From positions 34,623 to 98,622 of the IMG/VR virus record IMGVR_UViG_3300023174_000100: a stretch of 64,000 bases of DNA; one strand, written 5' to 3'. Source of the DNA: a virus. The notes beneath the pieces were generated by a model. That model saw nothing but the letters and a program-made list of their open reading frames with translations, ran no database searches and was not told where the DNA came from. Numbering within the stretch: position 1 is the first letter of the stretch; each line of letters starts with the position of its first letter. A program made the position numbers and the translations under genes. Of the stretch, positions 3,588-58,816 are shown in pieces.

Positions 3588-5312
3588 ATGAACGAATTAC
3601 ACGACTTAGCAAAAAAACAGGGATGGACAATAAATGACATACCTGAGTGGGGTAATAATAGCCTCTACCTAACAACTATACTAGGAGGATATTTACAAAA
3701 TAAAGAAACTCCTAAAAATGCGTATATCAGGTTAGCTATTACAGCCGCAAAGTACTTAAACAAACCTGAACTTTTTTCTAAATTTTTTGAAATACTTTGG
3801 AATGGATGGCTGATACCATCTACTCCGGTAATGAGTAATTTTGGAACTAACAGGGGATTACCTATATCATGTTTTGGCGGATATGTGGGTGATTCCATGT
3901 ACGATATATACAGAAAAAATCTTGAAATGGCTATACTATCTAAACACGGTGGAGGTACTGCATATGATTTTTCTGAAATTAGACCTAAAGGAGCATTAAT
4001 AAAAGACGGATCAAATGGAACTACTGATGGAATTATACCTTTTATAAAATCTTTTGATTCTACTATTATAGCATCTAAACAAGGTAAAATGAGAAGAGGT
4101 GCTGTAGCTGTGTATTTATCCGCAAATCACTCGGAGTTTTCTGACTTCTTAAAAATAAGAGAACCAAAAGGGGATATTAATAGACAATGTCATAATATTC
4201 ATATGGGAGCAAAATTCTCTAATGATTTTATGGAGGAAGTTATTAATAAAAATGGTAGCAAAAGAGAGTTGTGGTTAGAGCATATAAAAACTAGAGTTAA
4301 AACTGGAGAGCCATATACATTTTTTGTGGATAATGCTAATGCAAATCTTAAAAGTACATTTTCCGCATATAATTTAAAGGTAAGACACAGTCAATTATGC
4401 GCGGAAATAATGTTACCTTCTGATGAAAATCACACTTTTGTATGTTGCCTATCTTCTATGAATTTATATAAATGGGATGAATGGTCAAAAACAGATGCAG
4501 TATATTATGCCACTATATTCTTAGATGCAGTAATCTCTGAGTTTTTAGAAAAAGCTAAACATATACAAGGAATTGAAGACTCTATAAGATTTGCCGAAAA
4601 ATCTAGAGCTTTAGGATTAGGGGCATTAGGATGGGCTTCACTTTTACAAAAAATGAGAATACCTTTCGTGGGAATACAGGCAACTTCTTTAACCAGGGTT
4701 ATTTTTAGTCATATAAAGGAAAAATCAGATAAAGCTTCTATGTGGATGGCTAAAGAGTTTGGCGAACCTGCCTGGTGTGAGAAGAGCGGGTATAGAAATT
4801 TAACTTGTATAGCTGTAGCCCCCAATAGAAGTTCATCTAAATTGGCCGGAGGAATGTCTCAAGGAATTGAACCATTTGCCGCCAATTTGTATATGGATGA
4901 TGATGCAAAAGGAGCTCACCTAAGAAGAAATCCCGATTTAGAAAAATTACTAGACGAAAAAGGACTTAATACCCCTCAAATATGGGATATTATTGCGGAA
5001 GATAAAGGTTCTGTTAGAAATATAGATGGTTTAACAGATGAAGAAAAAGAAGTATTTAGAACATTTAAGGAAATAAATCAATTAGAGTTGGTTAGACAAG
5101 CAGCAATTAGGCAAGAATATATTGATCAAGGACAGTCTATAAATCTAGCTTTCTTTCATGATGCACCTGCAAAATGGATAAATCAAGTTCATATCGAAGC
5201 CTGGAAATTAGGAATTAAATCTTTGTATTATTTAAGATCTGAGAGCAATCTAAGAGCCGATAGTAAACAACAGAGAGATTTGTATTCCGAGTGTATTGTC
5301 TGTGAAGGTTAA
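3588..5312 (+). CDS. nrdA: Ribonucleotide reductase class I, alpha subunit (no ATP cone)
   Basis: PISCF, GGGTA, SQLCAEI, APNRSSS, DQGQSINL, KSLYYLR, C-terminal CIVCEG. Confidence 0.95.
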   Translation: MNELHDLAKKQGWTINDIPEWGNNSLYLTTILGGYLQNKETPKNAYIRLAITAAKYLNKPELFSKFFEILWNGWLIPSTPVMSNFGTNRGLPISCFGGYVGDSMYDIYRKNLEMAILSKHGGGTAYDFSEIRPKGALIKDGSNGTTDGIIPFIKSFDSTIIASKQGKMRRGAVAVYLSANHSEFSDFLKIREPKGDINRQCHNIHMGAKFSNDFMEEVINKNGSKRELWLEHIKTRVKTGEPYTFFVDNANANLKSTFSAYNLKVRHSQLCAEIMLPSDENHTFVCCLSSMNLYKWDEWSKTDAVYYATIFLDAVISEFLEKAKHIQGIEDSIRFAEKSRALGLGALGWASLLQKMRIPFVGIQATSLTRVIFSHIKEKSDKASMWMAKEFGEPAWCEKSGYRNLTCIAVAPNRSSSKLAGGMSQGIEPFAANLYMDDDAKGAHLRRNPDLEKLLDEKGLNTPQIWDIIAEDKGSVRNIDGLTDEEKEVFRTFKEINQLELVRQAAIRQEYIDQGQSINLAFFHDAPAKWINQVHIEAWKLGIKSLYYLRSESNLRADSKQQRDLYSECIVCEG

Positions 5313-54252: not shown

Positions 54253-54378
54253 AGTCAGGTGGCGGAAGGTAGACGCTAAAAAACTGTAATGAGGTTACGC
54301 TATCCTCACGTTAAATAAAAAAAGTATCAACGCGGTAGCGCGGTAGCCTTGCAGGTTCGAATCCTGCCCTGACTTCCA
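54253..54378 (+). ncRNA. tRNA-like RNA with unpaired anticodon region and a long extra arm
   Basis: AGTCAGG/CCTGACT acceptor plus TCCA, D-arm, GCAGG-TTCGAAT-CCTGC T-arm; CTGTAAT (Tyr-like) loop lacks a stem. Confidence 0.7.
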
Positions 54379-54402
54379 AAGGTTAATAAGTTTAAGTGGT
54401 TC

Positions 54403-54433
54403 GCTCCTGGCATTCTATGCCAGGAGTTTTTTT
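54403..54433 (+). terminator. Intrinsic terminator
   Basis: CTCCTGGCAT-TCT-ATGCCAGGAG plus T run. Confidence 0.85.
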
Positions 54434-57435: not shown

Positions 57436-57636
57436 ATGAGAAATAATAAGGAATGGGTAGCTATCCTAAATGGCACAAGGATTGATTCTAATGGCTTTTA
57501 TTGTGGTGCCGCTTGTGTTACTGCCTACACTAAAAAAGAGGCCATACGATTGCTCTCTAAGGCTAAAATGCATTACTTCGGTACTTACAAGATTAGCAAG
57601 GAAGTTAGAAGGAATACAAACATCTACGCTAATTAA
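57436..57636 (+). CDS. Hypothetical protein
   Basis: Coupled ORF. Confidence 0.55.
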   Translation: MRNNKEWVAILNGTRIDSNGFYCGAACVTAYTKKEAIRLLSKAKMHYFGTYKISKEVRRNTNIYAN

Positions 57637-57718
57637 CAAAAAATTAACTATAGGGGTATTGTATAGTAGATCCGGTACCCCTATCTTTGTATCATATTAT
57701 TAACCACTAAACTAAAAG

Positions 57719-58345
57719 ATGAACGTATTAGAATTATTCGCAGGCAGTAAGTCTATTGGCAAAGCTGCTGCTCAATTAGACATGAACGTATTCTCTGTTG
57801 ATTGGGAAAACTTTGATGGTATTGATTTGCAGATAGACATTTCAAAACTAAAGAAAGAAGATGTTCCGTTTGTTCCAGATATTATTTGGGCATCTCCAGA
57901 TTGTACAACATACACTATTGCTGCTATATCTACTCACAGAAATGGCGTAGAGCCGAAGAGCAAGTACGCTAGCGAGTGCGACATCACTAATCAACATTTC
58001 ATATCATTGATAAAGGAATGGTTAGAGATTAATCCTAACATGGTTTTCTTCATAGAGAATCCAAGAGGCATGTTAAGAAAGATGCCATGGATGCAAGAAT
58101 TTAAAAGACATACAGTATGGTATTGCCAGTACGGAGACGACAGAGCGAAGCCTACAGATATATGGACTAATTCAGAAGATTGGGTTCCTAGACCAATATG
58201 TAAAAATGGTAATAAGAAATGTCACCATACCCCTGCTCCTAGAGGTTCAAAGACAGGAACTCAAGGAAGGAAGGGTTCTTATGAAAGAAGCAGAATTCCA
58301 GAAGAGTTGTGTCATGAAATTCTAACTTCTTGTAAAAAATATTAA
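57719..58345 (+). CDS. DNA cytosine-C5 methyltransferase (short phage type)
   Basis: LELFAG, WASPDC, IENP. Confidence 0.85.
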   Translation: MNVLELFAGSKSIGKAAAQLDMNVFSVDWENFDGIDLQIDISKLKKEDVPFVPDIIWASPDCTTYTIAAISTHRNGVEPKSKYASECDITNQHFISLIKEWLEINPNMVFFIENPRGMLRKMPWMQEFKRHTVWYCQYGDDRAKPTDIWTNSEDWVPRPICKNGNKKCHHTPAPRGSKTGTQGRKGSYERSRIPEELCHEILTSCKKY

Positions 58346-58373
58346 TTATTAGTCACCGCGAAAAACTTAAAAA

Positions 58374-58643
58374 ATGGCAATATTCAAGTATTTAGATGAT
58401 TTCTTACCAGGCAGAAATGTCAATGATTTTGTATTCACTATGTTAGACCCTATATCTAATGAAGAATTAACATGGTATATAGAAGATGTCTTAGATGAAA
58501 TAAATAGAGACAGGTCAGCTAAGTGGACTAACTACACAAAAGATGATTGGTACGATGGTTGGAATTCATGGTGTGAGGATGATGCTTATGTAATGCTCTC
58601 CATAGAAGACAAGGGAGACATAGTGCATAGACCGTTTTCTTAG
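58374..58643 (+). CDS. Hypothetical protein
   Basis: ORF with A-rich leader. Confidence 0.65.
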   Translation: MAIFKYLDDFLPGRNVNDFVFTMLDPISNEELTWYIEDVLDEINRDRSAKWTNYTKDDWYDGWNSWCEDDAYVMLSIEDKGDIVHRPFS

Positions 58644-58653
58644 TAAATAAAAT

Positions 58654-58688
58654 GGTCGGGGCAGGTTCAAATCCTGTCCTGACTACCA
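58654..58688 (+). ncRNA. 35-nt tRNA minihelix (acceptor stem, T-arm, ACCA)
   Basis: GGTCGGG-GCAGG-TTCAAAT-CCTGT-CCTGACT-ACCA. Confidence 0.6.
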
Positions 58689-58742
58689 ACAGCTTAAATG
58701 TTGTGCAAGAGTACCCGTTCTCTGAAGATAAACAAAGGGGTT

Positions 58743-58815
58743 AGTCAGGTGGTGAAATTGGTAACACCTCAGGGGTAATAGCTTGATAATATAGGTTCAA
58801 ATCCTATTCTGACCA
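58743..58815 (+). ncRNA. tRNA-like cloverleaf with non-canonical anticodon loop
   Basis: AGTCAGG/TCTGACC acceptor, GGTG/CACC D-stem, TCAGG-GGTAATAG-CTTGA arm, ATAGG-TTCAAAT-CCTAT T-arm. Confidence 0.65.
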
Positions 58816-58816
58816 C

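What the first reader, a model, noticed from the sequence alone, without database searches (positions are those of the whole stretch)
58654..58688. Genomically encoded 35-nt tRNA minihelix with ACCA end
Seen: a 7-bp acceptor stem joined directly to a T-arm and ending in ACCA, with no D or anticodon arm. Known: such minihelices are in-vitro substrates for some synthetases, RNase P and the CCA enzyme. Inference: a natural anticodon-less tRNA mimic that could be a decoy, an aminoacyl donor or an RNA-processing punctuation mark. It could also be a clean deletion remnant.
Basis: partly seen in the sequence, partly recalled or inferred. Interest (0 to 1): 0.75.

Follow-up and report, generated by a model that had tools for sequence, protein, structure and literature searches.

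The report
Phage tRNA look-alike reduced to minihelix
A 35-base hairpin shaped like the top half of a tRNA really exists in this lake phage, but related phages carry a full tRNA or a full tRNA look-alike at the same spot, so it is most likely the leftover of a rearranged gene that host tRNA-trimming enzymes may still cut, not a new kind of RNA.

Summary
Window 58654-58688 is a perfect 7-bp acceptor stem stacked on a 5-bp T arm, with a canonical T loop, discriminator A and CCA. It folds at -20.8 kcal/mol (z = -4.7). An independent metagenome contig contains it without a single difference.

It is not a recurrent RNA. It is the only such element in 2.04 Mb of related phage DNA, and targeted pattern scans of IMG/VR found no other copy.

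The same position in every relative holds a full-length element:
- tRNA-Met, a tRNA-Ile-like gene or two tRNA look-alikes in the syntenic slot between the same two genes;
- a full tRNA-Asp or tRNA-Arg, or a 95-214-nt anticodon-less leucine-type look-alike ("shell"), in front of the same conserved CCA-plus-54-nt spacer.

Its 3' 24 nt equal the shell consensus, and the CCA belongs to the conserved junction.

Best reading (about 0.6): a one-off rearrangement product of a shell gene in a hot spot of tRNA-cassette turnover. It keeps all RNase P determinants, so it may still be cut out.

A selected role as a processing mark is possible (about 0.25). Charging or decoy roles have no support.

This scan has noted the shell family and other phage minihelices before, on other DNA.

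The parts
58644..58653 (+). Conserved A/T-rich leader TAAATAAAAT that abuts the first base of the element
   Evidence: The same leader precedes tRNA-Met in L005, tRNA-Arg in L155, the 47-nt mini-tRNA in L199 and a 133-nt shell in L160. N-1 is T, as in 119 of 146 shell-type elements.
58654..58688 (+). The minihelix: acceptor 5' strand 58654-58660, T arm 58661-58677, acceptor 3' strand 58678-58684, discriminator A 58685, CCA 58686-58688
   Evidence: 58662-58685 equals the shell consensus 3' end (exact 22-mer plus TA). Homology to other loci starts exactly at 58661/58662.
58689..58742 (+). Conserved 54-nt spacer that follows the CCA and precedes the next tRNA look-alike
   Evidence: nhmmer and pattern scans found the same spacer in 6 viral contigs and about 25 metagenome contigs. 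It always lies between an element ending in CCA (CTA in L161) and a shell.
58743..58816 (+). Short (73-74 nt) leucine-type tRNA look-alike ('shell') with an 8-nt loop where the anticodon loop should be, and an A1xC72 mismatch
   Evidence: ARAGORN calls it tRNA-???. Rfam tRNA model 42.7 bits with an 8-nt loop. Fold.
58817..59011 (+). Structured non-coding RNA of about 195 nt. It belongs to a phage RNA family that normally sits between two shells. Here it is followed by a run of seven T (59012-59018)
   Evidence: nhmmer hits in 13 loci. Shell|RNA|shell layout in L138, L136, L035 and L132. 92% identical copy in record G005. RNA-library contigs of two studies cover 58792-58986. No Rfam match.
59077..59100 (+). 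Decayed 3' remnant of a further shell (T arm plus acceptor 3' strand). It has two T-loop changes and one base missing from the T stem. There is no 5' partner strand
   Evidence: The fold is no better than shuffles. It is homologous to the intact shell 3' ends of L185, L193 and L172. Together with 58674-58686 it forms a 13-nt direct repeat CTGTCCTGACTAC (59089-59101).
59101..59116 (+). A-rich leader of the epimerase gene (CAAAAAAATAAC...). This is the conserved right border of the slot
   Evidence: The same sequence follows the tRNA or the remnant in L004, L005, L003, L253 and the X9 contig.
54253..54378 (+). Second shell of the same family in this phage. It is 123 nt with a 50-nt insert, ends in TCCA, and is followed by a hairpin and a T run
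   Evidence: Rfam tRNA model 31 bits. Sequence. Homologue L149.

Best explanation
The minihelix is a lineage-specific rearrangement product. It is what remains of the first tRNA-shaped gene of a mosaic, protein-free RNA cassette: [element ending in CCA][54-nt spacer][shell][about 195-nt structured RNA][shell]. The cassette sits in a fast-turnover slot between an 89-codon gene and an epimerase gene.

The parent was most likely an anticodon-less, leucine-tRNA-like 'shell' of the kind found in front of the same spacer in other phages. Residues 8-48 (D arm plus variable middle) were lost. The acceptor stem, T arm, discriminator and CCA stayed. This origin is inferred from comparison.

The surviving half is exactly the part that bacterial RNase P and the 3'-end trimming and CCA enzymes recognise: U at -1, G at +1, 12 stacked pairs, a T loop and a 3' ACCA. 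If the region is transcribed, the RNA is probably still cut at 58653/58654 and trimmed to the CCA. That would release a 35-nt hairpin and separate the upstream message from the downstream RNAs. This step is inferred from established enzymology and is not shown here.

I see no evidence that the 35-nt product has a job of its own.
For: (1) Position. In the closest relatives the same slot, with the same flanks, holds tRNA-Met (L005 4951-5025), a tRNA-Ile-like gene (L003 4273-4344), two shells (L253), or only an 8-13-nt 3' remnant (L004; the X9 contig joins 58636 to 59103).
(2) Cassette context. In about 20 distinct lineages the element directly before the same CCA-plus-spacer is a 75-78-nt tRNA-Asp or tRNA-Arg, or a 95-214-nt shell. 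Only the window (35 nt) and L199 (47 nt, a tRNA-Arg with a 27-nt internal deletion) are reduced.
(3) Sequence. 58662-58685 is identical to the shell consensus 3' end. Homology to other loci starts exactly at the T stem. The 5' strand GGTCGGG differs from the existing shell variant GGTCAGG (L058, which also has G49) only by A5 to G.
(4) Uniqueness. The exact 35-mer gives 0 hits in IMG/VR. The pattern AGTCAGG, 0-14 nt, then shell T arm gives 0 hits. The 15-nt junction gives only unrelated coding hits. No other such element occurs in 2.04 Mb.
(5) The locus is visibly decaying. The last shell of the same cassette is a broken 3' remnant (59077-59100), and relatives show deletions that reach into the upstream gene.
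(6) HNH homing-endonuclease-like genes (judged by eye from the translation) lie next to such cassettes in L155, L199 and G005. They are a plausible source of breaks and patchy repair.
(7) RNase P accepts minihelix substrates (PMC6614837).
Against: The junctions are exact: no linker, 7 + 5 pairs, and no microhomology that I could see. A random internal deletion would seldom give this.

The T arm and acceptor 3' strand show 0 changes against the consensus in 24 nt. The partnerless remnant 400 nt downstream has three. All differences in the 5' strand keep pairing. Both points would also fit purifying selection on the helix.

Both reduced forms found in front of the spacer (the window and L199) keep the whole top half plus CCA.

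No parental allele was found, so the deletion itself is not observed.
Confidence: 0.6

Rival explanations
1. Selected minimal processing signal, the phage counterpart of a plant-mitochondrial t-element. The top half is kept because RNase P and 3' processing at this spot are needed. They would end the upstream message and free the spacer, shell and structured RNA. The decoding-irrelevant parts were dispensable.
For: All RNase P determinants are intact. The 3' 24 nt are pristine, while the partnerless remnant in the same cassette has decayed. Both reduced elements found before the spacer keep the acceptor stem, T arm and CCA. [quoted passage not shown]
Against: There is no conservation beyond one shallow lineage, and no second linker-free example anywhere searched. 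The downstream shell has its own RNase P site, so the minihelix is not needed to mature it. Close relatives do without any element here (L004, X9 contig). No RNA ends were mapped.
Confidence: 0.25
2. DNA-level element. The shared shell 3' end would act as a recombination or attachment site, and the minihelix and the 59077-59100 remnant would be the two scars of a cassette insertion.
For: A 13-nt direct repeat CTGTCCTGACTAC (58674-58686 and 59089-59101) brackets about 415 nt. Relatives have a single short copy at the 'empty' site. Blocks of about 100 nt (T arm, CCA, spacer, next acceptor strand) are shared at 91-97% identity between otherwise unrelated contigs.
Against: No integrase or recombinase was found among ten neighbouring ORFs. 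The 22-mer is absent from host tRNA genes: it gave 5 hits in 185,579 prokaryote genomes, all of them shells on MAG contigs. The 'empty' sites are themselves deletions that cut into the upstream gene. An insertion model does not explain why the left copy lacks its D arm. The swap variant I tested holds that the 5' strand belongs to the downstream shell. Crosswise pairing is 2.4 kcal/mol better. The idea is weakened because an intact shell in G005 shows the same A1xC72 combination.
Confidence: 0.07
3. A working anticodon-less RNA: an aminoacyl carrier, or a decoy for enzymes or defence nucleases that read the acceptor/T-arm half or the CCA end.
For: The geometry is that of the classic synthetic minihelix substrates, with an encoded ACCA. 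Some synthetases charge minihelices; for example Aquifex LeuRS charges minihelix-Leu (PMC2377443).
Against: According to the same paper, E. coli and human cytoplasmic LeuRS do not charge minihelix-Leu and need the D-arm/T-arm tertiary core. That core is what the shells keep and the minihelix has lost. There is no G3-U70 alanine mark (U3-A70 here). No CCA-adding enzyme, Leu/Phe-transferase or Rnl1-type ligase domain was found in the 98.6-kb record, though this is a weak negative because the record is 56% complete. The element is unique.
Confidence: 0.04
4. Coding or terminator artefact. The hairpin would be part of a 30-codon ORF (58652-58744) or an intrinsic terminator of the upstream gene.
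For: An ATG formed by the leader plus G1 opens a 30-codon frame through the minihelix and spacer. The hairpin lies 10 nt after the upstream stop codon.
Against: In relatives the same ATG runs into a stop after 3 codons (L005, L155). The spacer is conserved as DNA behind elements of many different lengths and frames. No T run follows the hairpin, and the terminator scan found nothing.
Confidence: 0.02

Closest known systems
Truncated or decayed tRNA genes in phage tRNA clusters (pseudo-tRNAs, tRNA gene fragments)
   Same: It occupies a tRNA slot where relatives have intact genes. It lies in a region with other obvious fragments and with indels between near-identical phages. It occurs in one lineage only.
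   Different: The loss is surgically exact and leaves a complete, thermodynamically strong acceptor/T-arm domain with CCA. The parent was probably not a decoding tRNA but an anticodon-less look-alike.
t-elements of plant mitochondria (Forner et al. 2007, PMC1920247) and tRNA punctuation of organelle transcripts
   Same: It is a tRNA-derived partial structure with the conserved GGTTCRANYCC T-arm motif, placed next to mRNA ends. It could be cut by RNase P and 3' processing enzymes to define the ends of neighbouring RNAs.
   Different: t-elements have mapped transcript ends and recur. Here no ends are mapped and the element is unique. The host is a bacterium and the genome a phage. The CCA is encoded.
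Synthetic acceptor-T-arm minihelices used as substrates for RNase P, the CCA enzyme, EF-Tu and some synthetases (for example PMC6614837; minihelix-Leu in PMC2377443)
   Same: The design is the same: 7 + 5 stacked pairs, a 7-nt T loop, a discriminator and CCA.
   Different: This one is natural and genome-encoded. Its acceptor sequence carries no known minihelix identity set such as G3-U70. No activity has been tested.
Anticodon-less leucine-type tRNA look-alikes ('shells') of uncultured freshwater phages. This family was noted earlier in this scan (e1-5391334, e1-6065866). I did not find it in Rfam or in the papers searched
   Same: The T arm, acceptor 3' strand, A73 and C74 are identical. The acceptor 5' strand is one change away from a family variant. 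The genomic position (before the CCA-spacer-shell junction) is the same.
   Different: It lacks the leucine-type D arm (22/22 identical to E. coli tRNA-Leu in typical members) and any middle domain. It is 35 nt, against 55-235 nt for family members.
Stable tRNA-like RNAs of the T4 and T5 tRNA regions (T4 species 1 and 2; recalled from my own knowledge, not checked here)
   Same: They are small non-decoding RNAs encoded among phage tRNA genes and matured by the host tRNA-processing machinery. Their function is unknown.
   Different: Those RNAs are larger, are conserved among relatives and are known to accumulate. None of this is shown for the minihelix.

Membership tests
tRNA (Rfam RF00005) | Cloverleaf with D arm, anticodon arm and T arm that scores above the family threshold | tested here: not met
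   cmscan at E <= 10 over 57500-59600 gives no tRNA match on 58654-58688. ARAGORN does not call it.
Phage leucine-type anticodon-less shells | Acceptor stem AGUCAGG/CCUGACU (or a compensated variant), A73, C74 | tested here: met
   GGTCGGG/CCTGACT pairs 7/7, followed by A and C.
Phage leucine-type anticodon-less shells | T arm (A/G)CAGG-TTCRAAT-CCTGT | tested here: met
   It matches exactly.
Phage leucine-type anticodon-less shells | Leucine-type D arm (GGTGGCGGAATTGGTAGACGC-like) after the acceptor 5' strand | tested here: not met
   The T stem follows position 7 directly. The D arm is present in nearly all of the 97 elements listed. Even the 55-57-nt members keep one hairpin there.
Phage leucine-type anticodon-less shells | Variable middle domain in place of the anticodon arm | tested here: not met
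   It is absent. The family ranges from 55 to 235 nt.
t-element / tRNA-punctuation processing signal | Partial tRNA-like fold with a conserved T-arm motif next to RNA ends | tested here: met
   The fold and motif are present, 10 nt after a stop codon and 54 nt before the next RNA gene.
t-element / tRNA-punctuation processing signal | Transcript ends that coincide with the element's borders (RNase P and 3' processing in vivo) | not testable with these tools
   Only contigs of RNA libraries were available. They do not cover the minihelix and cannot show ends.
t-element / tRNA-punctuation processing signal | Maintenance by selection (recurrence or compensatory change among relatives) | tested here: not met
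   There is no second copy in IMG/VR, in the metagenome hits, or in 2.04 Mb of related loci.
tRNA-gene attachment site of an integrative element | Identity to the 3' end of a host tRNA gene | tested here: not met
   The 22-mer occurs in 5 of 185,579 prokaryote genomes. All five hits are phage-type shells on MAG contigs. Only the TTCAAAT T-loop variant was scanned.
tRNA-gene attachment site of an integrative element | Adjacent integrase or recombinase | tested here: not met
   Pfam found no recombinase domain on ten neighbouring ORFs.
Alanine-type chargeable minihelix | G3-U70 pair in the acceptor stem | tested here: not met
   Positions 3-70 are U-A.

The most novel reading that the evidence does not exclude
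The minihelix is the minimal working member of the phage 'shell' system. In this reading it is a natural, genome-encoded acceptor/T-arm RNA kept by selection, because host RNase P and 3'-end enzymes must cut there to punctuate a protein-free RNA operon. It might also yield a stable 35-nt CCA-ending hairpin with a role of its own. That would make it a bacterial-virus counterpart of organelle t-elements and a natural version of the laboratory minihelix.
Probability: 0.25. Interest if true: 0.65.

Novelty: new member of a known kind. Interest (0 to 1): 0.35.

Why it matters
By itself the minihelix is probably a genomic scar, which warns against reading function into a tidy fold.

It is useful as a marker, though. 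It exposes a modular, fast-shuffling RNA cassette system in freshwater, Flavobacterium-type phages. The modules are tRNAs, anticodon-less leucine-type look-alikes, a conserved CCA-spacer junction and a structured RNA of about 195 nt.

These elements share near-identical ends across unrelated phages and are swapped, truncated and nested.

If the top half alone were shown to be processed, that would say which part of these look-alikes the phage needs. It would also give a natural test substrate for RNase P and CCA-end biology in Bacteroidota.

Tried and rejected
- **Exact and near-exact copies.** The 35-mer, the 15-nt junction, and the pattern 'AGTCAGG, 0-14 nt, shell T arm' were scanned in IMG/VR. 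None gave a copy; the junction hits are unrelated coding DNA.
- **Swap model.** I tested whether the 5' strand GGTCGGG originally belonged to the downstream shell, split by an inserted 89-nt junction module. Crosswise acceptor pairing is 2.4 kcal/mol better and removes the A1xC72 mismatch. However, an intact shell in record G005 has the same A1xC72 combination, so the mismatch is a natural variant. The model loses its main support.
- **Microhomology.** A deletion between the CAGG(T) of the acceptor strand and the CAGG(T) of the T stem would remove one of the two copies. It cannot give the observed sequence.
- **Host tRNA mimicry or att site.** Rejected.
- **Small ORF and terminator readings.** Rejected.
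- **Enzyme genes.** Pfam searches of the record for a CCA-adding enzyme, Leu/Phe-transferase and Rnl1 ligase found nothing. The Rnl1 control rang nowhere, so that search is uninformative, and the record is only 56% complete.
- **RNA evidence.** RNA-library contigs (X15, X17) lie only on 58792-58986. The absence of cover on the minihelix says nothing either way.
- **Parental allele.** Searching the full records of five relatives found other shells and the structured RNA, but no parental allele.

Full report
**What is there.**
The window is bases 34623-98622 of a 98.6-kb IMG/VR virus record, about 56% complete. Lake and freshwater metagenomes hold it.

At 58654-58688 the + strand reads GGTCGGG-GCAGG-TTCAAAT-CCTGT-CCTGACT-A-CCA. 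That is a 7-bp acceptor stem stacked directly on a 5-bp T stem, a canonical 7-nt T loop, a discriminator A and CCA. Nothing stands where the D arm, anticodon arm and variable loop would be. Three of the 12 pairs are G-U.

The hairpin folds at -20.8 kcal/mol and makes up 84% of the ensemble. The z-score is -4.7, and 0 of 200 shuffles fold as well. ARAGORN and the Rfam tRNA model do not call it.

A contig of an independent public run covers 58607-58813 without a difference. Seven DNA runs of four studies hold at least 90% of the stretch's words. The junction is therefore real DNA, not a repeat-induced misassembly.

**What surrounds it.**
The element is the first unit of a 466-nt protein-free stretch. 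This stretch lies between an 89-codon gene (58374-58643) and an NAD-dependent epimerase gene (59117-60112; Pfam). In order it contains:
- the minihelix;
- a 54-nt spacer (58689-58742);
- a 73-nt tRNA look-alike with an 8-nt 'anticodon' loop (58743-58816);
- a structured RNA of about 195 nt (58817-59011), followed by seven T;
- an AT-rich stretch;
- a decayed T-arm-plus-acceptor 3' fragment (59077-59100), directly in front of the epimerase leader.

A 123-nt look-alike with the same acceptor stem lies at 54253-54375.

**The family behind it.**
The 22-mer CAGGTTCAAATCCTGTCCTGAC, which is the minihelix's T arm plus acceptor 3' strand, occurs in more than 119 IMG/VR contigs. Almost every copy is the 3' end of an RNA gene with these parts:
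- a start of (T)AGTCAGG;
- a D arm that is 22/22 identical to E. coli tRNA-Leu genes;
- a middle of very variable sequence and length that does not form a 7-nt anticodon loop;
- the invariant T arm, A73 and C74.

I counted 97 distinct sequences of 67-233 nt. A wider collection gave 179 elements, of which 121 carry the consensus AGTCAGG/CCTGACT acceptor stem; that collection also includes some genuine tRNAs.

Reduced members of 55-57 nt exist (L132, L042). Some members carry inserts in the D loop (L103, L127, L071, L107). Acceptor variants are compensated, for example AGCAAGG/CCTTGCT in L253 and AGTTAGG/CCTAACT in L132. This points to selection on the RNA helix.

The 22-mer is not a host tRNA end. 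It gave five hits in 185,579 prokaryote genomes, all of them such look-alikes on MAG contigs.

Earlier follow-ups in this scan described the same family on other DNA as tRNA 'shells' or carriers. I found it neither in Rfam nor in the papers searched.

The parts the shells conserve are the acceptor helix, A73 and the D/T core. These are the parts that LeuRS needs, while the anticodon arm is dispensable (PMC2377443). The minihelix has lost the D arm. That paper also states that E. coli and human cytoplasmic LeuRS do not charge a leucine minihelix.

**Comparative evidence on the minihelix itself.**
Two independent frames of reference give the same answer.

(a) Synteny. In the closest relatives, whose 208-aa neighbouring protein is 98% identical, the slot between the 89-codon gene and the epimerase holds one of the following:
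- a full tRNA-Met, preceded by the same leader ..GTAAATAAAAT (L005);
- only a 13-nt fragment CCTGTCCTGACCA fused to the end of the upstream gene (L004);
- only 8 nt, with the whole 466-nt stretch missing (the X9 contig joins 58636 to 59103);
- a tRNA-Ile-like gene (L003), in a more distant relative;
- two shells with a small ORF between them (L253), also more distant.

(b) Cassette homology. BLAST homology between the window and many unrelated contigs begins exactly at the T stem (58661/58662). It runs through the CCA and the spacer into the next element's acceptor strand and D arm, at 91-97% identity. I collected this junction from IMG/VR and from JGI metagenomes, about 20 distinct lineages in all. 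The element in front of the CCA-spacer is one of:
- a 75-nt tRNA-Asp-like gene;
- a 75-78-nt tRNA-Arg(TCT);
- a 95-214-nt shell ending ...CCTGACTACCA.

Only two elements are reduced: the window's 35 nt, and a 47-nt tRNA-Arg in L199 that lacks 27 internal bases.

The CCA is thus part of the conserved junction, and the minihelix stands where a full-length element normally stands.

Its 5' strand differs from the existing family variant GGTCAGG (L058, which also has G at position 49) only by A5 to G.

**Uniqueness.**
- The exact 35-mer gives no hit in IMG/VR.
- A canonical shell acceptor strand within 0-14 nt of the shell T arm gives no hit.
- The 15-nt junction gives 46 hits, all unrelated, mostly GC-rich coding DNA.
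- In 2.04 Mb of related loci with 1006 good T arms, the window's is the only linker-free 7/7 element.

The search tools may withhold near-identical records. 'Unique' therefore means no copy outside one shallow lineage.

**How it most likely came about and what it does.**
The simplest history is an internal loss of residues 8-48 from a shell at the first position of the cassette.

The locus is plainly unstable. The last shell of the same cassette is a broken fragment. Relatives differ by deletions that cut into the upstream gene. HNH endonuclease-like genes, judged by eye from the translation, sit beside such cassettes in L155, L199 and G005.

I also tested a swap model, in which the GGTCGGG strand belonged to the downstream shell. 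Crosswise pairing is 2.4 kcal/mol better. The mismatch that motivated the model also occurs in an intact shell of G005, so I do not favour it.

Either way, the minihelix is a junction product.

What survives is the full recognition set of bacterial RNase P as known from the literature: U at -1 (T in 119 of 146 shells), G at +1, a 12-bp coaxial helix, a T loop and a 3' RCCA. Minihelices are accepted substrates (PMC6614837). If the region is transcribed, cleavage at 58653/58654 and trimming to the CCA are therefore likely. The effect would resemble a plant-mitochondrial t-element (PMC1920247). This step is inference; no RNA ends could be examined.

The only RNA-library contigs on the stretch cover the structured RNA (58792-58986, two studies).

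**For and against selection.**
Three points speak for some constraint:
- The junctions are exact.
- The 24-nt 3' part has no change from the consensus, whereas the partnerless fragment 400 nt downstream has three.
- Every difference in the 5' strand keeps pairing.

Three points speak against:
- There is no recurrence.
- Close relatives have nothing at this site.
- The downstream shell has its own 5' processing site.

I put a neutral or nearly neutral scar at about 0.6 and a selected processing mark at about 0.25. The rest is shared by a DNA-level recombination site, a charged or decoy RNA, and coding or terminator artefacts. A 30-codon ORF through the element is not conserved. No terminator signature was found.

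**Verdict.**
The element is real and handsome, but ordinary in origin. It is a truncated member of an interesting and apparently uncatalogued family of phage tRNA look-alikes. It is not a new class of natural minihelix RNA.

Interest is 0.35. It would rise to about 0.65 if processing and selection were shown.

Noticed in passing
window 54253-54378, 58743-58816; loci L035-L153: There is a large family of phage tRNA look-alikes. They share the acceptor stem AGUCAGG/CCUGACU, a D arm identical to bacterial tRNA-Leu, an invariant T arm, A73 and C74. The middle is hypervariable, the total length runs from 55 to 235 nt, and there is no anticodon loop. N-1 is T in 82% of cases and position 74 is C in 100%. 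The conserved parts equal the LeuRS recognition set.
   Followed up: partly
window 58686-58742; L134, L109, L154-L157, L160-L199: A CCA-plus-54-nt spacer is conserved at 91-97% identity across many otherwise unrelated phage contigs. It always lies between an element with an encoded CCA (CTA in L161) and a shell. Its fold is no better than shuffles, and its function is unknown.
   Followed up: partly
window 58817-59011 (T run 59012-59018): This is a structured RNA family of about 195 nt that normally sits exactly between two shells (L138, L136, L035, L132). A 92% identical copy lies in a 200-kb phage record (G005). Contigs of two metatranscriptome studies cover it. It has no Rfam match.
   Followed up: partly
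L199 3078-3124: This is a second reduced element in front of the same spacer: a 47-nt tRNA-Arg derivative that lacks 27 internal bases (half of the D arm and the whole anticodon arm). Its acceptor stem, T arm and ACCA are intact. Its close relative L155 has the full 78-nt gene behind the same leader.
   Followed up: yes
L155 and L199 (gene just upstream of element 1); G005:C1 about 141250-141800: HNH homing-endonuclease-like ORFs lie directly next to tRNA/shell/structured-RNA cassettes. I judged this by eye from the translation and did not scan it against Pfam. They are a possible driver of the cassette shuffling.
   Followed up: no
L103 2363-, L127, L071, L107; G001 about 67.9-68.3 kb: Some shells carry 30-70-nt inserts inside the D loop. 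Some of these inserts have their own T-arm-like hairpin, so look-alikes are nested within look-alikes.
   Followed up: no
L132 1113-1167; L042 (minus strand) 4900-4955: These are minimal shells of 55-57 nt: an acceptor stem, one D-like hairpin and a T arm, with no middle domain. L132 has a compensated acceptor pair (U4-A69).
   Followed up: partly
L253 2195-2318 and 2532-2606: A more distant relative fills the same slot with two shells whose acceptor stem is AGCAAGG/CCTTGCT. Compared with AGTCAGG/CCTGACT this is a double compensatory change. The L003 tRNA-Ile-like gene has the same stem.
   Followed up: partly
window 58743-58816: The short shell has an 8-nt loop GGUAAUAG without U33 and an A1xC72 mismatch. 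The same A1xC72 combination occurs in an intact shell of G005.
   Followed up: partly
window 54379-54433: The 123-nt shell ending in TCCA is followed by a strong hairpin plus a T run that looks like a terminator.
   Followed up: no
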